Below are positions 920 through 13,757 of a stretch of DNA of 64,000 nt, piece by piece (position 1 is the stretch's first letter; the number at the start of each line of letters is the position of its first letter). Where the stretch lies: contig JAPLXQ010000006.1 of assembly GCA_026395995.1 (NCBI GenBank), positions 18,983-82,982 of the forward strand, in the 5' to 3' direction. The translations under genes were made by a program, and so were the position numbers. The stretch is from Candidatus Nomurabacteria bacterium. Lineage in GTDB: Bacteria > Patescibacteriota > Minisyncoccia > Phycocordibacterales > UBA9973. The notes under the pieces are model-generated. The model made no database searches and was not told where the DNA came from. It saw only the letters and a list, made by a program, of their open reading frames with translations.

Positions 920-3019
920 ATGGAACCAACACAATTCCCAGAAAATAAAGATATTACATATTTAGGTGAGACTACTTTTAGAAACAAAAATCAACTTTTT
1001 GGTATTAAAAGAAAAGATCGTCGCCAACATGTCTATGTTCTCGGAAAATCTGGAACAGGTAAATCAGCCTTACTTACAAATATGGTTATGCAAAACATTA
1101 TCAATGGAGATGGTGTTTGTGTTGTCGATCCTCACGGAGAATTGGTTGAAGATATCGTAGCGGCTATTCCTCCACATCGTATGAAAGATGTCGTCTACTT
1201 TAATCCAGCTGATACCGATTATCATATTGGTCTAAATGTACTCGAACTTATTGATCCTCAATACAAGCATCTTGTCGCATCAGGACTGATGGGAATCTTC
1301 ACAAAAATTTGGGCAAATGTTTGGTCTGCTCGTATGGAATACATTTTGAACAATGCAATTTTGGCTTTGCTTGAGACTCCAGGCACGACACTCCTTGGTG
1401 TCACTAGAATGCTCGTAGATAAACCATATAGAAAAACAATTGTTGATAATATCAAAGATCCTATCGTAAAAGGTTTTTGGGTAAATGAATATGACACTTG
1501 GCAAGATAAATTTCGTAATGAAGCTATTACTCCGATTCAAAACAAGGTCGGACAATTTCTTTCTAGCTCTATTGTTCGTAATGTCGTCGGTCAATCAAAA
1601 AGTACAATCAATCTTTTTGAAATAATGAATGAAAGAAAAATTTTCCTTGTAAACGTTTCAAAGGGACGTATCGGTGAAGACAATTCTGCTTTGCTCGGAG
1701 GTATGCTAATTACAAAAATCCAGCTCGCTGCGATGGAGCGTGTTCGTATTCTAGAAGATCAACGTAAAGACTTTTATTTATATGTCGACGAATTCCAAAA
1801 TTTCGTGACAGACTCTTTTGCAAACATTCTTTCTGAAGCTAGAAAATATCGTTTAAATTTGACTGTCGCACACCAATACACTGCTCAGCTCGTATCTGCA
1901 AATGGTTCAGCTGTACGTGATGCTGTTTTCGGTAACGTCGGAACGATGATTGTGTTTCGTGTCGGTGCTGAAGATGCAGACTTTTTGGAAAAAGAATTCG
2001 AACCAGAATTTATGGCACAAGATATTGTGTCTTTACCAAACTATCGAATTTATTTGAAGCTTATGATTGACGGAGTCACATCTCGTCCATTTTCTGCTAA
2101 AACTTTACCACCTATGGTGACAAAGAGAAATTTACAAACAGAACAAGAAGTAATAGATATTTCCAGAAAACTTTATGCTCGACCTAGAGAAATTGTCGAA
2201 GGTGAAATTAGTGAATGGAGTGGAATGTTTTTAAATCTTTCCGCTGCTACAGCACCAAAAGGTGGAAAAGAAATAGAACAATTTCCAGTGAAATGTTCTA
2301 TTTGTGCCAAAGATACTCTTGTACCATTCAAGCCAGAACCAGGACGACCTGTCTATTGTAAAGATTGTATTGCCAAAATGAAAGAAGGTACTTTGAAACC
2401 TTTACCTTTTACAGCACCCAAAATAGTAGAAGAAAAGAAAATTGAAGCTCCTATTCAAAAAACTATAAATGAAGTAAAAATACCTGTAATCACTCCGCCA
2501 ATACCAGCACAAATAGCGTTTAAACCAGCTTATAAAGATCCATTAAGTCCTACACCAGCACCAATTGCACCAAAACCAGCATATCAAGCTACTCAAAACC
2601 AGCCTTTTAAACCAGCTCTACAACAACCAATACAAACTATCCAAAAACCAATACCTCAAAATAATGCCTTGAAAGATGTTTTAGCTAAAGCTATGACTGA
2701 AAAGAAAGTCGAGCAACCAGTACAACCAAAAATATTTATTCCAACAGTTCAACCCACACCAGCACCTGTTTCTTTGGATTCATTAAAGAGTCAGACAAAT
2801 TCTTTACCAAATAATTTTCCAAAAGATAAAGGAGCTAGTAGTGATGATATGAATAAATTTAAAGATTTTATTACTGAAAAAGTATCACAACCACAAACAC
2901 CACCCACCACTCCTCAACAAAAAGAAGAAATAAAAACCTCACCCCAACTCTCTCCTGAAAAGGCGAGGGAGACAGTCAAAGAAGTCCCTGAAGACGTCTT
3001 GCTAAAAATCTTAGAATAA
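920..3019 (+). CDS. P-loop NTPase of the HerA/FtsK/TraD-like (DUF87-type) superfamily with a C-terminal CxxC...CxxC zinc ribbon and a long Pro/Gln-rich low-complexity tail
   Basis: Walker A GKSGTGKS near the N-terminus; Walker B-like hhhhDE ([11 protein letters not shown]). No N-terminal TM helix. C-terminal [32 protein letters not shown] zinc-ribbon motif, then repeats FKPAYKDP / [20 protein letters not shown]. Confidence 0.6.
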
Positions 3020-6619: not shown

Positions 6620-7096
6620 ATGAAAAAGAGATCTTTTTTAAACAAAGTTGGTGTTTTTTTTGGTGGAATTTTTGCAACCAAAGCGAGTTCGTATAGTTTC
6701 GATTATTTACTTTATCCATTAGCTATCCATTATCTTGGACTAGAATGGGGATTTGTAGTCATGCTGTTACTATCTTTTGTTTTAAATTATCTTTTCATCC
6801 TTCTGTATAATTCAACACAGAGAGATATCTTTGGTTTTGAAAAACTAAAAGAATTAAAAGATAAAACAACAAAAGAAAGTAAATCTTTTATCGCCCGATT
6901 AGTGGGTATGGGTTACGTGATGACTTTCATTGCATTGTCATTCTATGATCCATTCTTTGCAGTATTGTGGTTCCGGAAATCTACCAAGTTTGATAAAATG
7001 ACCAAAAGTGATTGGAAAATCTTAACGATTAGTACAATCATCGGAAATCTTATTTGGGCACCGATGGTATTCGGAGCACTTAAAATCTTCGAATAA
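6620..7096 (+). CDS. Hypothetical integral membrane protein
   Basis: Multiple hydrophobic helices (VGVFFGGIFATKA, FVVMLLLSFVLNYLFILLY, VMTFIALSFYDPFFAVLWF, ILTISTIIGNLIWAPMVFGAL). No recognisable catalytic motif. Confidence 0.4.
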   Translation: MKKRSFLNKVGVFFGGIFATKASSYSFDYLLYPLAIHYLGLEWGFVVMLLLSFVLNYLFILLYNSTQRDIFGFEKLKELKDKTTKESKSFIARLVGMGYVMTFIALSFYDPFFAVLWFRKSTKFDKMTKSDWKILTISTIIGNLIWAPMVFGALKIFE

Positions 7097-7107
7097 GTAA
7101 AACTAAA

Positions 7108-7137
7108 TTGCTCAGCTAATTAGCTGAGCAATTTTTA
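7108..7137 (+). terminator. Rho-independent terminator: 12-bp perfect palindrome TTGCTCAGCTAATTAGCTGAGCAA followed by TTTTTATTT
   Basis: Perfect hairpin read directly 12 nt after the stop of the 6620..7096 gene, followed by a T-tract. Confidence 0.8.
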
Positions 7138-7322
7138 TTTAATCAAAAATTAAACTCCACTGTGGATGGAATTGAACTGTTAAATTTATGGATTTTTGGA
7201 GATAGGTATCTACTCCGAATTCCATTAATACAATTACTTCCAAGTGTTCACTGATTTCTGTACAATTTTCGATACCAACATAATAATATCGATTTTGTTT
7301 TTCTTCTTTTTGTAATGATTGC

Positions 7323-7481
7323 TCAAAAAAGAAGTATACATCCCAATCTTTTTTTTAGGAAAAGTCCGGCCATTCCGCAAATTCCATCACAAATCCCTTC
7401 AATTGGTAATTTATGTTCTGTCTTCTGTGCTTCACAATTAATACAAATTAAAGAAAATAAGGTAAAGATCACTTTTTTCAT
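7323..7481 (-). CDS. Small (52 aa) Cys-containing secreted-peptide candidate, absent from the supplied ORF track because it is under 60 aa: MKKVIFTLFSLICINCEAQKTEHKLPIEGICDGICGMAGLFLKKRLGCILLF
   Basis: ATG at 7481 and TGA at 7323 on the minus strand, translated by hand. Signal-peptide-like N-terminus, a GICDGICG motif and an amphipathic C-terminus. It sits in the ORF-free gap upstream of the YcaO locus. Confidence 0.3.
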   Translation of the reverse strand: MKKVIFTLFSLICINCEAQKTEHKLPIEGICDGICGMAGLFLKKRLGCILLF

Positions 7482-7538
7482 AATATTAATTTTTAAAACT
7501 TTGTTTATAGTTTATCATTGTTTATCTAAAAGTCAAGA

Positions 7539-7568
7539 TTGACACTGTTTATTTTTATATAGTATCAT
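7539..7568 (+). promoter_or_regulatory. Candidate sigma70-type promoter (TTGACA - N18 - TATCAT) upstream of the small-peptide ORF at 7629
   Basis: TTGACA at 7539-7544 and an AT-rich -10 region at 7556-7568, about 60 nt upstream of the ATG. Confidence 0.3.
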
Positions 7569-7628
7569 TATTATGAATAAACTCATGTAGTGTGAGAGTT
7601 CATTAAGTTCATTTAATCTCTAAAAAAG

Positions 7629-7730
7629 ATGAAAAAGAAAATCTTTAAATCCGTAAAGTTATCTGCCCCAAAAATTGCAATTCCTAAATCAGGAAATTGT
7701 GGTGGAAACTCATGTAAATGCAAGCACTGA
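7629..7730 (+). CDS. 33-aa peptide MKKKIFKSVKLSAPKIAIPKSGNCGGNSCKCKH: candidate RiPP precursor (Lys-rich leader plus Gly/Ser/Cys-rich C-terminal core). Absent from the ORF track
   Basis: Hand translation from ATG 7629 to TGA 7728-7730. A candidate promoter lies upstream and a perfect terminator hairpin directly downstream. Core composition (G/N/S/C) is typical of azol(in)e-type precursors. It is about 0.9 kb upstream of the RRE-YcaO gene on the same strand. Confidence 0.4.
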   Translation: MKKKIFKSVKLSAPKIAIPKSGNCGGNSCKCKH

Positions 7731-7750
7731 TTGCACATAATGCATTGTAA

Positions 7751-7782
7751 AATACACCTATAAATTTAGGTGTATTTTTTTT
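7751..7782. terminator. Bidirectional rho-independent terminator (ACACCTA taaattt TAGGTGT + T8) shared by the convergent small peptide (+) and HExxH peptidase (-) genes
   Basis: Hairpin and T-tract read directly at 7754-7782; A-rich on the other side. Confidence 0.7.
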
Positions 7783-8632
7783 ATTTTCTAAAAAAACTAA
7801 ATATTTGTTTCGGATTTATTTTAAAAAGTTCCAGAAGGGTATTTCCTGACCTACTTATAACTTCGTCAATGAGCCAATAACCAAGACTATATCCATACCA
7901 ATTTTGTAGATTTTTTGTTCCAAAAAAATACGAAAGATAGAAATCAATATTACTATCATCAATAAAAAGATTTAAATCTTTTTCAGATATTATATTAAGT
8001 TCTTTGATAGCATCTTCTTTGTTTAAAGTAGTAGACCATGGGGCACGATTACCACCTACAATAAATTCTCTAAAATGCTCAGCCAATCCTTCATTTACCA
8101 TTCCATCTAAAATGGAATTCCATGAATATTGCGATGTATATGCAAGATGAGCATATTCGTGAGGTATAGTTTCCCTTAAGGATACTTGCCATTTCTCATT
8201 TGTTGTATCAATGAGTAAATACATAATATTTCCTTCAACTATAAAACCATTTACCCCATCTAAGTCTTCACTTGCTTCTTTGTTATAAAGCGGAAGTATA
8301 TAAACGTTAATATTTTTTGTAACAGAAACTGCATTAAAAGATTTTTTAATAATAACTTCAACTATTTTTGAAATAGTTTCAATATGTTCAAATATGTTTA
8401 TGTAAAAAGATTGTTCTGATTCACCAAAAATTTTACGACCGAGATCGTTTTTTAACTTCTCTTCGTTTGAATACTCACCAAGACTAAAATTCGGAGTATT
8501 TTTTATTTGTGTAAAAATGTCCTCTAAAGAAGAAGTTTTTGATTCTGAAGAATGAGGTTGTATATAAAAAAAATCTACTTTTACAGATTTTGATAAATAT
8601 TGACTTTTTATTTTTTCATTGTTATTGTTCAT
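7781..8632 (-). CDS. Putative Zn-dependent peptidase (HExxH...E gluzincin-like; DUF2268-like), cytoplasmic
   Basis: IPHEYAHLAY (HExxH) followed by NEGLAEHF, which supplies the third zinc-ligand Glu. 283 aa, no signal peptide. Divergently transcribed from the YcaO gene with only a 32-bp gap. Confidence 0.55.
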   Translation of the reverse strand: MNNNNEKIKSQYLSKSVKVDFFYIQPHSSESKTSSLEDIFTQIKNTPNFSLGEYSNEEKLKNDLGRKIFGESEQSFYINIFEHIETISKIVEVIIKKSFNAVSVTKNINVYILPLYNKEASEDLDGVNGFIVEGNIMYLLIDTTNEKWQVSLRETIPHEYAHLAYTSQYSWNSILDGMVNEGLAEHFREFIVGGNRAPWSTTLNKEDAIKELNIISEKDLNLFIDDSNIDFYLSYFFGTKNLQNWYGYSLGYWLIDEVISRSGNTLLELFKINPKQIFSFFRK

Positions 8633-8664
8633 ATAAATAAAGTGAACCTTAAAAAATATAATCC

Positions 8665-10161
8665 ATGAAAAATAATGAATATTTCCCTCGATTTATCGCC
8701 AAATGGATTAAACATCCTCAAGGCATACAAGTATATGCTCTTAAAGAAAGCATAACACTTGAAGAAATGAATGTACAGGCTATTTCTTCAATAGAAAAAA
8801 TATGTTCAGGTAAGAACAATCTTGATGAAGTGATCCGTAAATTGTCACTTAAATGGGACAAGGATGATATAGTGACATTGATTTATCTTTTCATTGAAAA
8901 GCAAATTATTGTTAATAATAAAGAAGTAAATCCTTTAGTTAAGGGTTGTAAGTTAAAAAAAATAGAGACCCTTTTACCAAACCAAGAAACAGTTGATATT
9001 TTAAATCTACCATATCAAGTTATTTACGGGAGAGCTGGTTCTGATATTTGGTCTTCAGGGAAAGATATAGATATTAATATTGCTACAAATAAAATGATTT
9101 CTGAAATTGCTGAATGGAATGCATGGAATTTTCCAAAAAAAGAATGTACTCTTTTTGGGTCATTTGAAAGTCTTGCTAGTAAAAACATACTAGTACCACC
9201 TAGTGATATTATTAATTATGCTGATTTTCAATATAGTGATATTTTATTTCCTTATAAAATATTCAATCCACTATCAAATTATAATTGGATTTGTGCAAAA
9301 AATTTTATAAATAACGAGAAGGTTTTTATATTCTCTGAACATATTCTTTTTACGCAAAATCCAATATATGTTGCTAATACATCGTCTGGTTGTTCAGCTC
9401 ATGTTAATAAAAATAAAGCTATTCATCATGCTGTGCATGAATTAATCGAAAGAGACGCTTTTATGATTTACTGGTTAAATAAGTTAGATCGACCTAGAAT
9501 TAATTTAAATTCATTACCAGAAAGTATTATATTTCGAGTAAAAAATATTCAAAATCTTGGATACCGTCTTACTATTAATGACATCAGTATGGGGATTGCT
9601 CCAGTTATTATGGTTGCTTTGCAAGATATAGATGGTTGTTATGTAACTTCTGGATTAGCTTCATTGTATGACTTCGAGGCCATGTTTAGCTCTGCATTAT
9701 CAGAAGTCGAGGTTAGTCTACTTCATATTTTGAATAGTAAAAAGATTGTACAAAAAAAATTGAAACCAGAAACAGTGAAATCTCTTGTTCAACATGAAGA
9801 GTTACATCAGCAAATAATGTATCAAAAAGAAACTTCATTCATATTTGAATCAAGTAAAGAAATTTCTTTTAAAAACTTTATGATAGCTTATAAGGATGAA
9901 AAAAATATCATCAAAACGATATTAGACAAAGGTTTTGATTTGTATGTTGTTGATGCAACAGATTGGGAGATTGATGTTTTACTACCAGAACATCGTCATA
10001 TTGTTCGAGCTATTATTCCAGGTCTTGTACCGTTATCTTTTGGTTATCACAAAGAACCATTAGGTATGTCTAGGATTTATGAAGTGCCTGTTCAGTTAGG
10101 TTTTCGTAGTAATACTATCTCGTATCAAGAGCTGAATAGATTTCCTCATCCGTTTAATTAA
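8665..10161 (+). CDS. RRE (PqqD-like) - YcaO fusion protein; predicted ATP-dependent peptide cyclodehydratase/backbone-modifying enzyme of a RiPP-type pathway
   Basis: N-terminal ~100 aa fits the PqqD/RRE pattern (ITLEEMNVQAISSIEKICSGKNNLDEVIRKLSLKWDKDDIVTLIYLFIEKQIIV). YcaO motifs follow: YGRAGSDIWSSGKDIDINIATNKMISEIAEWNAW and SSGCSAHVNKNKAIHHAVHELIERDAF (the ExxER ATP/Mg site). The C-terminus ends ...RFPHPFN, a PxP-type Pro-rich tail like that of azoline-forming YcaOs. Confidence 0.75.
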   Translation: MKNNEYFPRFIAKWIKHPQGIQVYALKESITLEEMNVQAISSIEKICSGKNNLDEVIRKLSLKWDKDDIVTLIYLFIEKQIIVNNKEVNPLVKGCKLKKIETLLPNQETVDILNLPYQVIYGRAGSDIWSSGKDIDINIATNKMISEIAEWNAWNFPKKECTLFGSFESLASKNILVPPSDIINYADFQYSDILFPYKIFNPLSNYNWICAKNFINNEKVFIFSEHILFTQNPIYVANTSSGCSAHVNKNKAIHHAVHELIERDAFMIYWLNKLDRPRINLNSLPESIIFRVKNIQNLGYRLTINDISMGIAPVIMVALQDIDGCYVTSGLASLYDFEAMFSSALSEVEVSLLHILNSKKIVQKKLKPETVKSLVQHEELHQQIMYQKETSFIFESSKEISFKNFMIAYKDEKNIIKTILDKGFDLYVVDATDWEIDVLLPEHRHIVRAIIPGLVPLSFGYHKEPLGMSRIYEVPVQLGFRSNTISYQELNRFPHPFN

Positions 10162-10169
10162 AACAACTT

Positions 10170-10201
10170 ACACCCAGCCAAATATCATCTGGGTGTTTTT
10201 A
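10170..10201 (+). terminator. Rho-independent terminator after the YcaO gene (ACACCCAG ccaaatatcat CTGGGTGT + TTTTTA)
   Basis: 8-bp perfect stem plus T-run, read directly 9 nt after the stop codon. Confidence 0.65.
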
Positions 10202-10202
10202 T

Positions 10203-11072
10203 TTGCTGATTTTTACAGGGGATTATGATATTATTAATACTATGTCAGAAGAAAATCAGAAAATTTCAATCGGGGATTATGATACTATAATGAATGATAG
10301 AAATATCTTTAATCAGATAGTGTATACACCGCTTTCTGAAGCGCTTAGGCTTCTCGAAGAAAGACAAAAAGATCCAGTATTAATGGCAAAAATTGAAGAA
10401 TTACTTAATGGTGATATTCCAGAAGTTTTGAAACCTATTGGTAAATATGCAGTTCAATTTAGACAAATTGCAACACCCAACAATGAATGTAAGTATTTTC
10501 TAAAGATTTCTAATAATTTCGGCTTAACTCCAACACTCATGGAATACCATAGTGATAAATTTTCTTCTAATAATTTTTTTAAACGTTCCCTAGGTCAATT
10601 ACACATACAAGGACCTATAAATAAAAAAAATGAATACCAGATTGAAAAAATTACCATTATGGATTTTAATAAACATAATGGTAAAAAATTAAATGAAGTT
10701 GTTACCCATTGGAACGAATCAATCATTGATTTCCATAGAAAATTATTTAATATATGTGACTTAAATACTAAAGAATGTAATTTTTATGACACTTCGGAAT
10801 GGATTAATAATCACGGATCTAGTCCAGAGGAATATTATAAACAATTCCTTATTTTATTTGTTTGTCATGGAATTTTATTTGAAAATTTTCTTTTAAACAA
10901 AGAAGAAAGTTCTTTTATTAAAAATGTAATTTTACCAGCATTAGAAGATGTTATAAATTTAACAGGAGTAAAACCACTAATTGTACCCGGTTCTCCTATT
11001 GATATTGAAGATGAAAATTTCTGGGTTCTATATCATCCAAATATTAAGACTATAATTCAAAATGAAAAATAA
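10203..11072 (+). CDS. Hypothetical protein (289 aa) with no recognisable motif; first gene of a tightly packed 4-gene unit with the SET protein, a Cys-rich protein and a histidine kinase. The true start may be the internal MSEENQK
   Basis: ORF only. Overlaps the next gene by 11 nt. Asn/Lys/Ile-rich. No assignable domain by eye. Confidence 0.35.
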   Translation: MLIFTGDYDIINTMSEENQKISIGDYDTIMNDRNIFNQIVYTPLSEALRLLEERQKDPVLMAKIEELLNGDIPEVLKPIGKYAVQFRQIATPNNECKYFLKISNNFGLTPTLMEYHSDKFSSNNFFKRSLGQLHIQGPINKKNEYQIEKITIMDFNKHNGKKLNEVVTHWNESIIDFHRKLFNICDLNTKECNFYDTSEWINNHGSSPEEYYKQFLILFVCHGILFENFLLNKEESSFIKNVILPALEDVINLTGVKPLIVPGSPIDIEDENFWVLYHPNIKTIIQNEK

Positions 11073-11616
11073 AACACCAAAGTTAAAAAAGAAAAGTACA
11101 GGTAAATATGGTAATGGTTTTTACGCTGATGAAGACATAAAAAAGGGGACTATAATCCATATGTTTACAGGGAAAAGAATGGATGTAAAAGAATTAGTTC
11201 AAAAAGTTAATTCTAACAAAGAAAATATTGATGACCCATTTCAAATAGGCAAAAGAACATATATTGACTTAGACGAAGTATCTAGAACATTTAATCATAG
11301 TTGTGACCCTAATTGTGGGATAAGAAAAGTTGGTGAAATGTTTTCCTTAAGAGATATTAAAAAAGGAGAAGAAATTACTTATGATTATTCATTAACTATA
11401 GCACCTACAGAATGGAAAATGAAATGTTTGTGTAAAAGTAAAAATTGTCGTAAAATATTAGGAGATATAAATTCTGTATCAAAAAAACAATTAGATTCTT
11501 ACAAGAAATTTGGAGCTTTGCAAAACTACATGAAGAAACTATTAAAAGAAATAGAAAGTGGTAATTACAAAGTACCAAAATATGAAATTGAAGCTTTAAA
11601 CAGTCTTAAAATATAG
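11062..11616 (+). CDS. SET-domain protein lysine methyltransferase (with post-SET Cys cluster)
   Basis: GNGFYADEDIKKGTII (SET N-region), RTFNHSCDPNCGIR (the canonical NHSCxPN motif), EEITYDYS (ELxF/YDY motif) and post-SET CLCKSKNCRKILG. Confidence 0.8.
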   Translation: MKNKTPKLKKKSTGKYGNGFYADEDIKKGTIIHMFTGKRMDVKELVQKVNSNKENIDDPFQIGKRTYIDLDEVSRTFNHSCDPNCGIRKVGEMFSLRDIKKGEEITYDYSLTIAPTEWKMKCLCKSKNCRKILGDINSVSKKQLDSYKKFGALQNYMKKLLKEIESGNYKVPKYEIEALNSLKI

Positions 11617-11667
11617 TAAGTTATTTTTTATAAATATTAAATATGTTAAAATAATAATAAGTTAAAA

Positions 11668-12024
11668 ATGAAAAAAAATACCAAAGCCATTATTGTAATA
11701 ATCCCGATTTTATTTTTAGTAATATTTAGTTATAGGTATTATCAATATATAATTCAAAAAAACTATATATTAGAAGTTAATACTATTTGTAATTCTGAAA
11801 TAGAAAACTGTTTTGATTCTTCAGATTTAAGTTTTGGTCAAAATCCTTATAAAAAAGTAAGAGTTTTAGATAAATATGCTCCTAAATGTCTCGAAGAACA
11901 TAATTGTGATAGCTTTTATTGTCCTGTTAGCCTAGGTAAAGATAAATGTGAAATTACTTACTGTTCAGATGAAACAAAAGTCGATGGGGAAGGTTGCACA
12001 AATAAAATAATAACTAATCAATAA
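11668..12024 (+). CDS. Small Cys-rich secreted or membrane-anchored protein (10 Cys in the ~85-aa extracytoplasmic part)
   Basis: N-terminal hydrophobic anchor AIIVIIPILFLVIFSY. Then CNSEIENCFDSSD...KCLEEHNCDSFYCPVSLGKDKCEITYCSDETKVDGEGC, consistent with a disulfide-rich fold. Confidence 0.45.
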   Translation: MKKNTKAIIVIIPILFLVIFSYRYYQYIIQKNYILEVNTICNSEIENCFDSSDLSFGQNPYKKVRVLDKYAPKCLEEHNCDSFYCPVSLGKDKCEITYCSDETKVDGEGCTNKIITNQ

Positions 12025-12026
12025 AA

Positions 12027-13757
12027 ATGCTATCTCATTTCATAAATATTCAATATTGTTATACATATCTTATTGACCAGACACCTGTAAGTCTTTTGTT
12101 ATACTCACATATACCTACAGCTATACTTGCTTTATTTTTTGGTATTTTTATTTTTCTAAAAAATAGAAGCCAGCAAGGTTTTGCTCTGTTAATGATTTGT
12201 ATATCTTTTGCTCTTTGGTGTCTTTTTGATCTGAGTTCTTGGTTTTCTTTTATTGGATCTGGGAATACCATGCTTGCATGGTCACTATTAGATTTAATTT
12301 CATTAATTATGTTCTTCTTTTCTTATTACTTTCTATATACTTTTATTACAGAAAAGGATTTTCCTATTTGGCAATGGTTTGTTGGATTTATTTTAATACT
12401 ACCTACGGCCGTTTGGACATTGTTAGGTAAAAATTTACCTAACTATGATTCAAATAACTGTCAAGCAATAGAAAATACTAAAATTACTGGTTACCTATTT
12501 TATATTTTAGGTCTATTTATAATAATTTCTTCTGTATTTTCTATATATCAGTATATGAAAAATAAAGAAAATTTTGAAAAAAGAAAAAAGATTTTACTAG
12601 TTGGGAGCGGTATAATATTATTTTTAATTTTCTTTTTTTCAGCATTATTAGCTGTTAATTTATTAGCAAATAGTGATTCATCTGGATATGTCTATAACTA
12701 TGAAATTTATGGTTTGTTTGGAATGCCGATATTGCTTATATTCTTAGGTTATCTTGTTATAAAATTCAAGGCATTTAATGTAAAACTTATTTCAGCTCAA
12801 GCATTAATATTTGCCTTGATAACTTTGATAGGTTCTCAGTTTTTGTTTATTACAAGTACAGTAAACTTTATATTAAATGGGGTCACATTTATCGGAGTAG
12901 TAATTTTTGGAATTTTCCTTATTGAATCTGTTAAAAAAGAAGTAAGACAAAAAGAATATTTAGAAAAACTAACAATAGAATTAAACGATTCAAAAATGCG
13001 ACTTGAGGATACAAATATCAAGCTTGAAAGTGCAAATGACAAACTTCAATCTCTCGATAAATTAAAGACAGAGTTCCTTTCACTCGCTTCACACCAGCTT
13101 CGTAGTCCTTTGACAGCTATTACAGGCTATACATCGATGCTACTCGATGGATCATTTGGAAAAATGGATGACAAGCAGAAGGAAGCTATTGACCGTGTGT
13201 ATCAATCTAGTCGTCATCTCTCTACTACAGTGGAAGATTTGTTGAACGTGACAAAGATCGAGCAAGGTGGAATGCAATACGTGATGGCAGATTTTGATTT
13301 TGAAAAAGCTGCTCAAGATTTAGCCAAAGATTTATCCGTCACTGCTGAGAAAAAAGGTTTGAAGCTCACTTTCAAGACAGATAAAAAATCTCCATATACA
13401 GTAAAAGGTGATATGGAAAAAATCCGTCAGGTTATTTTGAATTTTATAGATAACTCTATTAAATATACGAAAAAGGGAAGTATTCATGTACTTATATCAA
13501 AAGATGAAGATAAGAAAAAAATTCGTCTTTCTATTACCGATACAGGTATGGGTATGACTCCAGAGATAAAAGCAAAATTATTCCAAAAATTCTCTCGTGC
13601 TGAAGGAGCAAAAATGAATGCTGGAGGTTCTGGTCTCGGTCTCTATCTAGCAAAGAAAATCATTGAAGAAGGGCATCATGGTGCTGTAGGTGTCGATTCT
13701 GATGGTACAGACCTAGGTTCCACCTTCTGGATGGAATTGGATGAGGCTACAAACTAA
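12027..13757 (+). CDS. Sensor histidine kinase with N-terminal multi-pass (7TM-type) membrane domain, HisKA and HATPase_c; no cognate response regulator in the window
   Basis: About 7 hydrophobic helices in the first 300 aa; a coiled-coil linker; the H-box FLSLASHQLRSPLTAITGY; the N-box NFIDNSIKYT; G-boxes DTGMGM and GGSGLGLYLAKKI. Confidence 0.85.
   Translation: MLSHFINIQYCYTYLIDQTPVSLLLYSHIPTAILALFFGIFIFLKNRSQQGFALLMICISFALWCLFDLSSWFSFIGSGNTMLAWSLLDLISLIMFFFSYYFLYTFITEKDFPIWQWFVGFILILPTAVWTLLGKNLPNYDSNNCQAIENTKITGYLFYILGLFIIISSVFSIYQYMKNKENFEKRKKILLVGSGIILFLIFFFSALLAVNLLANSDSSGYVYNYEIYGLFGMPILLIFLGYLVIKFKAFNVKLISAQALIFALITLIGSQFLFITSTVNFILNGVTFIGVVIFGIFLIESVKKEVRQKEYLEKLTIELNDSKMRLEDTNIKLESANDKLQSLDKLKTEFLSLASHQLRSPLTAITGYTSMLLDGSFGKMDDKQKEAIDRVYQSSRHLSTTVEDLLNVTKIEQGGMQYVMADFDFEKAAQDLAKDLSVTAEKKGLKLTFKTDKKSPYTVKGDMEKIRQVILNFIDNSIKYTKKGSIHVLISKDEDKKKIRLSITDTGMGMTPEIKAKLFQKFSRAEGAKMNAGGSGLGLYLAKKIIEEGHHGAVGVDSDGTDLGSTFWMELDEATN

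What the first reader, a model, noticed from the sequence alone, without database searches (positions are those of the whole stretch)
8665..10161. RRE-YcaO fusion with PxP-type C-terminus and its own terminator
ExxER (HELIERD) and the first YcaO motif are intact, so the enzyme is probably ATP-active. The proline-rich C-terminal tail (RFPHPFN) is the feature associated with azoline-forming cyclodehydratases rather than amidine- or thioamide-forming YcaOs. There is no E1-like/Ocin-ThiF or TfuA partner nearby. The fused PqqD-like domain may substitute for the partner's leader-binding role. A clean hairpin terminator directly after the gene (10170-10201) suggests it is transcribed separately from the downstream SET unit.
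Basis: partly seen in the sequence, partly recalled or inferred. Interest (0 to 1): 0.75.

Follow-up and report, generated by a model that had tools for sequence, protein, structure and literature searches.

The report
Minimal three-gene thiazoline-peptide cassette
The gene is a real YcaO peptide-modifying enzyme with its own built-in peptide-docking domain, and it does not stand alone: in every relative it sits beside a zinc protease gene and a tiny gene for a 33-residue cysteine-rich peptide that is almost certainly its substrate.

Summary

In all 9 distinct loci recovered, the YcaO is paired divergently (23-37 bp start to start) with a DUF2268 gluzincin (HExxH-x18-E invariant; window 7781-8632, minus strand). 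Beyond that gene lies a conserved 32-37-codon gene (window 7629-7730, plus strand) ending in the invariant core GNCGGNxCKCxH. This small gene shows codon-level purifying selection, and in the window it has its own promoter-like site and terminator.

The nearest relatives are 720-750-aa RRE-nitroreductase-YcaO fusions. At least one of them also has an adjacent DUF2268 gene and a Gly/Cys-rich peptide gene. The window enzyme therefore looks like that three-domain enzyme with the dehydrogenase domain removed.

Best reading: a minimal azoline-peptide (LAP-like) cassette in Candidatus Nomurabacteria and other candidate-phyla-radiation (CPR) bacteria. The RRE binds the leader, the YcaO makes thiazolines, and DUF2268 removes the leader. 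The chemistry is inferred, not shown. This is a new variant of a known kind.

The parts
7539..7568 (+). Promoter-like site (TTGACA-18-TATCAT, 11 of 12) about 60 nt upstream of the peptide gene
   Evidence: It is the best sigma-70-type match in 7000-12100. This is a consensus match only. The total number of promoter-like sites in the region does not exceed shuffled expectation.
7629..7730 (+). Candidate precursor peptide gene, 33 aa: MKKKIFKSVKLSAPKIAIPKSGNCGGNSCKCKH
   Evidence: A homologous 32-37-codon ORF occupies the same position in every family locus with enough flank. A DNA-pattern scan for the core alone returned 4 metagenome hits, and all 4 lie next to a DUF2268 gene. Codon differences fall at positions 1/2/3 as 63/51/213, with 167 synonymous against 75 non-synonymous codon differences. 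Canonical Shine-Dalgarno sequences precede the ATG in L002 and L003. The peptide matches no Pfam or NCBIfam family.
7692..7727 (+). Predicted core GNCGGNSCKCKH (three Cys, C-terminal His)
   Evidence: Ten of the 12 core positions are invariant in 9 distinct peptides, as is the leader proline P19. Mean pairwise identity is 87% in the core against 42% in the leader.
7749..7778 (.). Hairpin with 12 bp stem flanked by A/T runs, between the convergent peptide and DUF2268 genes; likely bidirectional terminator
   Evidence: Terminator scan. Hairpins follow the peptide gene in all 7 loci inspected.
7781..8632 (-). DUF2268 gluzincin metallopeptidase, 283 aa, with no signal peptide; candidate leader peptidase
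   Evidence: Pfam PF10026 at E 7.1e-28. The motif HEYAH (nt 8147-8161) plus NEGLAE (E181, nt 8090-8092), spaced as HExxH-x18-E, is invariant in all close-family homologues; L014 keeps both motifs at x21 spacing. The gene is adjacent to the YcaO in all family loci.
8633..8664 (.). 32-bp divergent intergenic spacer between the DUF2268 and YcaO start codons
   Evidence: The spacer is 23-37 bp in 6 of 7 loci. A promoter-like TTGACT-17-TATTGT at 8600-8628 (+) lies inside the DUF2268 5' coding region.
8665..10161 (+). RRE-YcaO fusion protein, 498 aa
   Evidence: The AF2 model has pLDDT 88.5 and pTM 0.89. The best Foldseek matches are LynD, MusD and TruD at E 1e-22 to 1e-19.
8683..8919 (+). N-terminal RRE domain (residues ~7-85), beta-strands followed by three helices
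9013..10158 (+). YcaO domain (residues ~117-498), including motifs SSGKD...SEIAEW (nt 9052-9117) and HELIERD (nt 9436-9456)
   Evidence: Pfam, TIGR03604 and profile alignment to TruD 414-781. E147, E150, E259, E262 and R263 are invariant.
10138..10158 (+). C-terminal tail RFPHPFN (a PxP version of the PxPxP motif)
   Evidence: [quoted passage not shown]
10170..10205 (+). Intrinsic-terminator-like hairpin plus T-run after the YcaO gene
   Evidence: The feature is conserved in all 8 family loci.

Best explanation
The ORF is the modifying enzyme of a compact three-gene RiPP cassette found in Candidatus Nomurabacteria and other Patescibacteria (candidate phyla radiation, CPR): peptide gene -> <- DUF2268 protease, then YcaO ->.

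Shown here:
- The enzyme is an RRE domain fused directly to a YcaO domain that keeps the Mg/ATP glutamate motifs.
- A 32-37-aa peptide gene under purifying selection and a gluzincin with an intact active-site motif co-occur with it.
- Its closest relatives are RRE-nitroreductase-YcaO enzymes and LAP-type clusters.

Inferred:
1. The RRE binds the leader (conserved L/I-F-x-x-V-x-V...P stretch) as an added beta-strand. This replaces the leader-binding role of the E1-like or Ocin-ThiF partner.
2. The YcaO domain uses ATP to cyclodehydrate one or more of the three invariant Cys in GNCGGNxCKCxH to thiazolines.
3. Because the dehydrogenase domain present in the relatives is missing, and no SagB gene is in the 64-kb window, the rings probably stay as thiazolines.
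4. The cytoplasmic DUF2268 gluzincin removes the leader, probably near the invariant P-x-x-G-N junction. This would release a cationic peptide of about 12 residues ending in His.

The three genes are separate transcription units. The peptide gene has its own promoter-like site and terminator, and the YcaO gene has its own terminator.
For: YcaO identity and type:
- Pfam E 2.4e-32.
- The best NCBIfam model is TOMM_cyclo_SagD at 156.9 bits, against 44.5 for the McrA thioamidation type and 37.1 for the E. coli type.
- The best solved structures are the azoline-forming TruD, LynD and MusD, by sequence and by fold.
- The Mg/ATP glutamates and the PxP tail are conserved.

Substrate:
- The peptide is present in all family loci and only there.
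- A search for the peptide alone recovers only DUF2268/YcaO loci.
- Synonymous substitutions dominate.
- The core is 87% identical against 42% for the leader.

Protease:
- The HExxH-x18-E spacing is invariant in all close-family homologues; the more distant L014 homologue keeps both motifs at x21 spacing.
- DUF2268 is adjacent to the YcaO in 9 of 9 distinct loci.

Link to azol(in)e clusters:
- The top relatives are RRE-nitroreductase-YcaO proteins.
- L048 has the tri-domain gene, a DUF2268 gene and the convergent peptide ...QCRSGGGGNGKCGGKCSK.
- L014 has SagB, a long YcaO, the peptide ...CGNCGQCGGGGGNCGGQCGGGKCGGGK... and DUF2268. That peptide weakly resembles heterocycloanthracin precursors.
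- Nearly all distant relatives have a SagB gene adjacent or fused.
Against: - There are no biochemical data, and the modification is inferred from homology.
- TIGR03604 scores below its curated cut-off (157 against 219 bits).
- The tail has only 2 of the 3 prolines and an extra C-terminal Asn.
- The first motif reads ExxEW, not ExxER.
- All characterised partner-dependent azoline-forming YcaOs use an E1-like or Ocin-ThiF scaffold, which is absent here.
- The RRE shows no sequence-level match to PqqD.
- No exporter or immunity gene is conserved.
- Close DUF2268 paralogues exist without a YcaO or peptide gene (L044, L046), so the protease is not exclusively dedicated to this system.
- An invariant core is unusual for antibiotic LAPs.
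- The invariant Asn residues are not explained by simple Cys cyclodehydration.
Confidence: 0.7

Rival explanations
1. The same three-gene cassette, but the YcaO performs a different amide-activation chemistry on the peptide. Candidates are backbone thioamidation, amidine or macroamidine formation, an Asn-derived heterocycle, or ATP-dependent peptide cleavage of the MusD kind. DUF2268 then trims the product.
For: YcaO enzymes are chemically versatile. PMC12338566 describes imidazoline, macrolactamidine and amidine products, the 7u58 entry title reports peptidase activity for MusD, and PMC13063428 describes thioamides. The two Asn residues and the C-terminal His are as invariant as the Cys. No dehydrogenase is present. 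The ExxEW deviation is invariant.
Against: No TfuA or sulfur-carrier gene is nearby. The enzyme scores far better with the azoline-forming type than with the thioamide type. The PxP tail is present. The closest relatives carry a fused or adjacent azoline dehydrogenase, which implies azoline products in the clade. The substrate has three invariant Cys.
Confidence: 0.15
2. One reading: an autonomous RRE-YcaO with no functional partner nearby, whose substrate is unknown or encoded elsewhere. On this view the neighbouring genes are incidental.
For: The YcaO gene has its own terminator and is transcribed separately. No canonical C, F or TfuA partner is present.
Against: The YcaO, DUF2268 and the peptide gene co-occur strictly, in fixed geometry, in 9 distinct loci whose other neighbours all differ. 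A search with the peptide alone finds only such loci. The same trio recurs around more distant YcaOs.
Confidence: 0.04
3. The YcaO modifies a protein rather than the small peptide, as happens with McrA or ribosomal uL16. The target could be the DUF2268 protease itself. On this view the small Cys3-His peptide is an unmodified metal-binding peptide, for example a Zn or Cu buffer or a chaperone for the metalloprotease.
For: Protein-modifying YcaOs exist (PMC5589413, PMC13063428). The C-x4-C-x-C-x-H pattern looks like a metal site. The core is invariant in the way a structural motif would be.
Against: An RRE domain is a leader-peptide binding module (PMC5589413). The enzyme scores poorly against protein-modifying YcaO models. 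The homologous clusters L014, L017 and L048 have classic Gly/Cys-rich LAP-type precursors and dehydrogenases.
Confidence: 0.06

Closest known systems
Cyanobactin heterocyclases LynD / TruD / PatD / MusD (RRE - E1-like - YcaO single chains)
   Same: They are the best solved-structure matches by sequence and by fold. They have an N-terminal RRE and a C-terminal YcaO in one chain. The ExxE and ExxER Mg/ATP motifs match, and the C-terminal tail aligns (NPTPMPF against NRFPHPF). They form thiazolines from Cys using ATP.
   Different: The window protein is 498 aa against about 780 aa, and the whole E1-like middle domain of about 230 aa is absent. Identity is only about 16% over the structural alignment. 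There are no cyanobactin recognition sequences, no PatA/PatG proteases and no macrocyclisation. The precursor is 33 aa with a single invariant core.
[quoted passage not shown]
   Same: The core is a Gly/Asn/Cys-rich C-terminal segment. The relatives' precursors (L014, L017) weakly match TIGR03601. McbD and the McbB RRE are structural matches. The logic is leader-directed YcaO cyclodehydration followed by proteolysis.
   Different: There is no separate C (E1-like) protein and no B (dehydrogenase) protein. The protease is of the DUF2268 type rather than TldD/E, CaaX or M16. No transporter or immunity genes are present. The core is much shorter (12 residues) and invariant.
RRE-nitroreductase-YcaO tri-domain proteins (uncharacterised; P0063, P0017 and others)
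   Same: They are the closest homologues: 37% identity in the YcaO half and 29% in the RRE (E 2e-9), and they share the SSGKD and ExxEW quirks. The P0017 locus also has a DUF2268 gene and a convergent Gly/Cys peptide gene.
   Different: The window family lacks the nitroreductase (azoline dehydrogenase) domain of about 250 aa between the RRE and the YcaO domain. Its gene order is also different: DUF2268 is divergent from the YcaO rather than co-directional with it.
Thiopeptide / heterocycloanthracin F-protein systems (Ocin-ThiF-like partner carrying the RRE, e.g. PbtF)
   Different: In those systems the RRE sits on a separate Ocin-ThiF-like protein that works with a truncated CD fusion. Here it is fused directly to the YcaO and there is no ThiF-like fold.
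Stand-alone YcaOs of bottromycin biosynthesis (partner-independent thiazoline and macroamidine formation)
   Same: There is no E1-like or Ocin-ThiF partner, and thiazoline would form without a SagB-type dehydrogenase. [quoted passage not shown]
   Different: To my knowledge bottromycin YcaOs have no fused RRE and use a follower peptide. The sequences are not close, since no bottromycin-type hit appeared. The cluster context is also different.
Haloazolisin 'short CD fusions' (haloarchaea)
   Same: They are also a truncated, non-canonical fused cyclodehydratase architecture (PMC4603692).
   Different: The truncation is the opposite one. Haloazolisin enzymes lack about 200 N-terminal residues, including the peptide-binding region, and keep a residual C domain. 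The window enzyme keeps the RRE and lacks the C domain.

Membership tests
YcaO superfamily (PF02624) | Pfam YcaO score above the gathering threshold | tested here: met
   113 bits against a cut-off of 25.7, residues 140-454.
YcaO superfamily (PF02624) | YcaO fold | tested here: met
   The AF2 model (pLDDT 88.5) matches LynD, MusD, TruD, MjYcaO, EcYcaO and McbD at Foldseek E 1e-22 to 1e-11.
YcaO superfamily (PF02624) | Conserved Mg/ATP-binding glutamate motifs (ExxE(R) twice) | tested here: met
   E147/E150 (SEIAEW) and E259/E262/R263 (HELIERD) are invariant and align with TruD EAIER and ELVERD. In the first motif the Arg is an invariant Trp. The residues' roles come from general knowledge of YcaO structures. 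ATP binding itself cannot be tested here.
Azoline-forming (TOMM / SagD-type) cyclodehydratase | NCBIfam TIGR03604 at or above its curated cut-off | tested here: not met
   156.9 bits against a cut-off of 219.25. It is nevertheless by far the best-scoring YcaO model.
Azoline-forming (TOMM / SagD-type) cyclodehydratase | Proline-rich PxPxP C-terminus | tested here: inconclusive
   The tail is ...NRFPHPFN. Two of the three prolines are kept, the tail aligns with TruD NPTPMPF, and there is an extra terminal Asn. The motif's meaning is taken from PMC12338566.
Azoline-forming (TOMM / SagD-type) cyclodehydratase | E1-like (C) or Ocin-ThiF-like (F) partner, fused or adjacent | tested here: not met
   No such gene is among the neighbours, in the window by phmmer with a ThiF-YcaO fusion, or conserved in the 9 loci. 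Only the RRE part of such a partner is present, fused to the YcaO.
Azoline-forming (TOMM / SagD-type) cyclodehydratase | Adjacent precursor peptide with a Cys/Ser/Thr-containing core | tested here: met
   Window 7629-7730, core GNCGGNSCKCKH, conserved in all loci.
Azoline-forming (TOMM / SagD-type) cyclodehydratase | ATP-dependent cyclodehydration of Cys/Ser/Thr demonstrated | not testable with these tools
   This needs in vitro or heterologous reconstitution with mass spectrometry.
Azole-forming LAP synthetase (BCD) | FMN-dependent SagB-type dehydrogenase in the cluster | tested here: not met
   A SagB profile built from the relatives finds no ORF in the 64-kb window or in the flanks of the family loci, although it hits nearly all distant relatives. 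No nitroreductase domain was found among the neighbours.
Cyanobactin heterocyclase (PatD/TruD/LynD) | Three-domain chain: RRE, E1-like domain, YcaO (~780 aa) | tested here: not met
   The protein is 498 aa. The RRE (7-85) is joined to the YcaO domain (from ~117) by a linker of about 30 residues, and no E1-like domain is present.
RiPP recognition element (RRE / PqqD-like) | Sequence match to PqqD (PF05402) or to RRE-containing solved proteins | tested here: not met
   There is no PF05402 hit at E<=10 in 11 members. A profile search against PDB gave no RRE hit. Only weak Lant_dehydr_N hits appeared (E 0.024, 4 members).
RiPP recognition element (RRE / PqqD-like) | [quoted passage not shown] | tested here: met
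RiPP recognition element (RRE / PqqD-like) | Binds the leader of the cognate precursor | not testable with these tools
   This needs a binding assay or a complex prediction; the structure jobs were exhausted.
E. coli-type YcaO (uL16 thioamidation; formerly 'S12 accessory factor') | TIGR00702 at or above its cut-off | tested here: not met
   37.1 bits against a cut-off of 75.65. EcYcaO is a weaker structural match than LynD, TruD or MusD.
TfuA-associated thioamide-forming YcaO | Adjacent TfuA gene, or match to the methanogen marker model TIGR03266 | tested here: not met
   No TfuA was found among the neighbours. TIGR03266 scores 44.5 bits against a cut-off of 365.
DUF2268 / gluzincin metallopeptidase (the neighbouring gene) | PF10026 above threshold, with HExxH and a downstream Glu ligand | tested here: met
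   97.9 bits against a cut-off of 23.6. HEYAH-x18-E(NEGLAE) is invariant in all close-family homologues; L014 keeps both motifs at x21 spacing. Proteolytic activity is untested.

The most novel reading that the evidence does not exclude
The cassette does not make a bacteriocin. It makes a conserved, cofactor-like or metal-binding small molecule, analogous in logic to PQQ or mycofactocin (RRE-guided processing of an invariant peptide) or to thiazoline siderophores. On this reading the product is a roughly 12-residue thiazoline/His peptide from the invariant core GNCGGNxCKCxH, produced by a natural minimal cyclodehydratase that needs only an RRE and no E1-like scaffold or dehydrogenase. It would serve a housekeeping or host-interaction role in ultra-small CPR bacteria. 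The grounds are that the core is 87% identical while the leader (42%) and the enzyme (49%) have diverged, and that no exporter or immunity genes are conserved.
Probability: 0.2. Interest if true: 0.85.

Novelty: new variant of a known kind. Interest (0 to 1): 0.62.

Why it matters
If the inference holds, this is a natural minimal azoline synthetase: an RRE joined directly to a YcaO domain with no E1-like or Ocin-ThiF scaffold. It would let one test directly what the C/F partner contributes beyond leader binding, which is a long-standing question in YcaO enzymology.

It would also assign a first function, RiPP leader peptidase, to a clade of the uncharacterised DUF2268 family. It would define a precursor family that standard gene callers and curated models miss. 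It would also document a strongly conserved peptide natural product in CPR/Patescibacteria, whose secondary metabolism is almost unexplored.

The apparently clean loss of the dehydrogenase domain, relative to the RRE-nitroreductase-YcaO relatives, is a tidy example of domain loss changing the predicted product from azole to azoline.

Tried and rejected
- **Sequence tests for PqqD/RRE.** Pfam on 11 N-termini at E<=10 and a profile search against PDB gave nothing. Only the fold comparisons were informative.
- **N-termini of the ~505-550-aa YcaOs in L012-L014.** hhalign against the family N-terminus was not significant (probability 5%), so I make no RRE claim for those proteins.
- **DUF2268 against PDB.** The only hits were to the ATG7 E1-like enzyme at E~0.27. 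This was tempting because the missing partner is E1-like. I reject it as chance: the E-value is non-significant, there is no ThiF Pfam hit, and the region is the strand preceding the HExxH helix.
- **DUF2268 as a universal partner.** It is not. Among 30 distant YcaO loci only L014 has it, and orphan DUF2268 paralogues exist.
- **The antisense ORF 7613-7738 (-) as the real gene.** Rejected. Its start and length are not conserved, whereas the plus-strand ORF keeps its start, its stop and a synonymous-substitution pattern.
- **RNA elements upstream of the peptide gene.** Rfam and tRNA scans found nothing in the ~530-bp non-coding stretch.
- **Literature.** No paper holds both DUF2268 and YcaO. 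Nothing specific turned up for Patescibacteria YcaOs or for RRE-YcaO direct fusions. Three key papers are not held (Chem Rev 2017, Nat Chem Biol 2014 and the peptide-nucleobase paper), so the roles of individual residues rest on general knowledge. One literature search was wasted on poorly chosen terms.
- **The downstream 289-aa and SET-domain genes.** They are not part of the system, because they are absent from every other locus.
Full report
**1. The observation**

The ORF at 8665-10161 (+) is real. It runs from ATG to TAA and encodes 498 aa. Pfam places a YcaO domain at residues 140-454 (E 2.4e-32). Twelve homologues of about 498 aa, at 44-99% identity, were found in metagenomes and metagenome-assembled genomes (MAGs).

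A 99%-identical copy lies in a Candidatus Nomurabacteria MAG (L007), so the window comes from a candidate-phyla-radiation (CPR)/Patescibacteria genome.

- HELIERD is at residues 258-264.
- An N-terminal YcaO motif, SSGKD...SEIAEW, aligns with TruD SGKG...CEAIER.
- The tail RFPHPFN aligns with the NPTPMPF tail of TruD and LynD.

Two small deviations are family-wide. The Arg of the first ExxER motif is an invariant Trp (W151). The tail keeps two of the three prolines of PxPxP and adds a terminal Asn.

The hairpin at 10170-10196, followed by a T-run, folds at -11.2 kcal/mol with z -2.1. An equivalent hairpin follows the YcaO stop codon in all eight family loci examined.

**2. The N-terminal domain**

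Sequence methods do not recognise the domain. No PqqD hit appeared at E<=10 in 11 members, and a profile search against PDB found nothing.

Structure prediction is confident: the full-length model has pLDDT 88.5 and pTM 0.89, and the domain alone has pLDDT above 90 over residues 10-85. It gives strands at 13-17, 20-24 and 29-33, followed by helices at 37-46, 53-60 and 66-78.

The RRE assignment is supported by fold, not by sequence.

**3. The type of YcaO**

The best curated model is TOMM_cyclo_SagD at 156.9 bits. This is below its 219-bit cut-off, but well above the McrA thioamidation model (44.5 bits) and the E. coli-type model (37.1 bits).

By sequence and by fold, the closest solved structures are the azoline-forming cyanobactin heterocyclases TruD, MusD and LynD.

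The enzyme does not group with the E. coli type, which is now known to thioamidate uL16 (PMC13063428). [quoted passage not shown]

**4.

I fetched the genomic context of the homologues. Everything around the YcaO gene varies except two features.

The first is a DUF2268 gene, always directly upstream on the opposite strand. The start codons are 23-37 bp apart in six of seven loci. In the window this gene is 7781-8632 (-). The protein has no signal peptide. It carries HEYAH and, 18 residues later, NEGLAE. This HExxH-x18-E gluzincin signature is invariant in all close-family homologues, and the more distant L014 homologue keeps both motifs with 21 intervening residues.

The second is a small ORF lying beyond DUF2268 and convergent with it, on the same strand as the YcaO. 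In the window it is 7629-7730 (+) and encodes MKKKIFKSVKLSAPKIAIPKSGNCGGNSCKCKH.

The evidence that this small ORF is a real gene:
- Nine distinct versions align with P19 and G22-N-C-G-G-N-x-C-K-C-x-H33 invariant.
- Across the last 17 codons, differences fall at codon positions 1/2/3 as 63/51/213, with 167 synonymous against 75 non-synonymous codon differences.
- Canonical Shine-Dalgarno sequences precede the ATG in the higher-GC loci.
- A hairpin follows the gene in every locus inspected.
- In the window, the best promoter-like site of the region (11 of 12 matches, 7539-7568) lies 60 nt upstream, and a hairpin with a 12-bp stem (7749-7778) lies downstream.

As an independent test I scanned the metagenome collection with a degenerate DNA pattern for the core alone. 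All four hits lie next to a DUF2268 gene, and a YcaO gene follows wherever the contig reaches far enough.

The peptide matches no Pfam or NCBIfam model. The downstream 289-aa and SET-domain genes are absent from every other locus.

**5. Evolutionary placement**

I searched 1.84 billion representative proteins with the family profile. The full-length 498-aa architecture is rare: two clusters plus a fragment.

The next-best hits (E 1e-112 and weaker) are proteins of 710-750 aa. In 81 of the 158 relatives re-scanned locally (the representatives plus P0014-P0026), the family's N-terminal profile also matches the relative's N-terminus, with domain E-values down to 2.5e-13. Pfam shows a nitroreductase (SagB-type) domain between that N-terminal region and the YcaO domain.

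For P0063, the RRE regions align at 29% identity (E 2e-9; hhalign probability 96.8%) and the YcaO halves at 37% identity. P0063 also shares the SSGKD and ExxEW quirks.

The window enzyme therefore looks like an RRE-dehydrogenase-YcaO enzyme from which the roughly 250-aa dehydrogenase domain is missing.

The P0017 locus (L048) has the tri-domain gene, then a DUF2268 gene, then a convergent small ORF ending ...TFQTQCRSGGGGNGKCGGKCSK.

A Saccharibacteria locus (L014) has SagB, a 513-aa YcaO, a precursor ...CGNCGQCGGGGGNCGGQCGGGKCGGGK... and a DUF2268 gene. That precursor, and the L017 precursor, weakly resemble heterocycloanthracin-type LAP precursors.

A SagB profile hits a gene adjacent to, or fused with, nearly all 30 distant relatives. 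It hits nothing in the 64-kb window or in the flanks of the family loci.

**6. Mechanism**

Shown here:
- An RRE fused to a YcaO domain with intact Mg/ATP ligands.
- A co-inherited peptide under purifying selection, with three invariant Cys.
- A co-inherited gluzincin with an intact active-site motif.
- Membership of a clade whose other members carry azoline dehydrogenases.

Inferred:
- The RRE docks the leader, whose L/I-F-x-x-V-x-V pattern suits strand addition.
- The YcaO domain cyclodehydrates Cys to thiazoline using ATP.
- With no dehydrogenase present, the rings stay as thiazolines.
- DUF2268 removes the leader near the invariant P-x-x-G-N junction.

I put this reading at about 0.7.

The main rival (0.15) is different YcaO chemistry on the same peptide. 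The equally invariant Asn and His residues, and the ExxEW change, leave room for this.

Other readings are unlikely, given the RRE, the co-occurrence data and the homologous LAP-type clusters.

**7. Caveats**

- Nothing here is biochemical.
- TIGR03604 scores below its cut-off.
- The tail is PxP rather than PxPxP.
- No exporter or immunity gene is conserved.
- DUF2268 paralogues of the same clade occur without a YcaO or peptide gene (L044, in the same genome as L009; L046, which is syntenic with L006). Most distant YcaO relatives use other proteases.
- The weak ATG7 (E1-like) hit of DUF2268 (E 0.27) is best treated as chance.

**8. Novelty**

The parts are of known kinds: a YcaO, an RRE, a leader peptidase and a Cys-rich precursor. 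The system is best filed as a LAP-like azoline RiPP.

The variant features are:
- An RRE fused directly to a YcaO domain with no E1-like or Ocin-ThiF fold. This is the opposite truncation to the haloazolisin short CD fusions described in PMC4603692.
- Apparent derivation by loss of a dehydrogenase domain.
- A DUF2268 gluzincin as the cognate protease. No paper in the library links DUF2268 with YcaO.
- A core far more conserved (87%) than the leader (42%) or the enzyme (49%). This is the reverse of the usual RiPP pattern and hints at a conserved molecular target or a metal- or cofactor-like role.
- Occurrence in CPR bacteria.

I rate it a new variant of a known kind, with interest 0.62.

Noticed in passing
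L048 5001-8270 (also P0063, P0066, P0068 and about 80 further representatives): A large, apparently uncharacterised class of 710-750-aa tri-domain proteins, RRE - nitroreductase (SagB-type) - YcaO. In L048 the gene is followed by a DUF2268 gene and a convergent small ORF ...MKAPKKFSWAATVRKLPTAGSRTFQTQCRSGGGGNGKCGGKCSK.
   Followed up: partly
L014 2522-6308: A locus in a MAG labelled Saccharibacteria with a SagB-like gene, a 513-aa YcaO with an N-terminal extension, a 63-aa precursor (MSLMKEKLQIKVTKRNLTKELAENSMRCGNCGQCGGGGGNCGGQCGGGKCGGGKVTPALHHKR) and a DUF2268-like protease. It looks like an intermediate form between classic LAP clusters and the window cassette.
   Followed up: partly
L017 3652-7216: A Patescibacteria LAP-type cluster with a 73-aa Cys/Gly/Thr-rich precursor, a 417-aa YcaO ending NRFPHPFL with no N-terminal domain, a SagB-like dehydrogenase and an M16-like peptidase.
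   Followed up: no
L044 4956-5837; L046 5001-5834: DUF2268 paralogues of the same clade (53% and 41% identity) with no YcaO or GNCGGN peptide gene nearby. L044 is in the same genome as the complete cassette L009. L046 is syntenic (ClpB, aminotransferase) with L006, which suggests loss of the YcaO and peptide genes with retention of the protease.
   Followed up: partly
P0056 (1.4-kb contig): A 308-aa protein whose precomputed Pfam hits are SPASM (PF13186) and DUF2268. This hints that DUF2268 proteases may also be attached to radical-SAM RiPP systems.
   Followed up: no
window 10203-11616: Two overlapping genes directly after the YcaO terminator: a 289-aa protein with no family match and a 184-aa SET-domain protein (PF00856, E 1.7e-15). 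They are not conserved next to the YcaO in any other locus. A SET-domain methyltransferase is an unusual find in a CPR bacterium.
   Followed up: partly
window 11668-12024: A 118-aa protein with an N-terminal membrane anchor and many Cys residues, with no Pfam or NCBIfam match. It lies immediately upstream of a multi-pass membrane histidine kinase (12027-13757).
   Followed up: no
window 920-3019: A 699-aa VirD4/TrwB-type coupling-protein ATPase with an internal treble-clef zinc finger (PF23477) and a long Pro/Gln-rich C-terminal tail. It sits between dnaK and dnaJ.
   Followed up: no
window 7097-7628: About 530 bp with no convincing gene and no Rfam or tRNA hit, between a strong bidirectional hairpin (7105-7134) and the peptide gene. 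It contains a 52-aa minus-strand ORF (7323-7481) with a lipoprotein-like N-terminus (MKKVIFTLFSLICINC...). I did not check whether this is conserved.
   Followed up: no
L005 5873-6000: In this locus the YcaO N-terminus (MKNVYFPKFIAP...) is interrupted by a stop codon, so the called protein (P0003, 460 aa) starts inside the RRE. This is either a sequencing error or a decaying copy.
   Followed up: no
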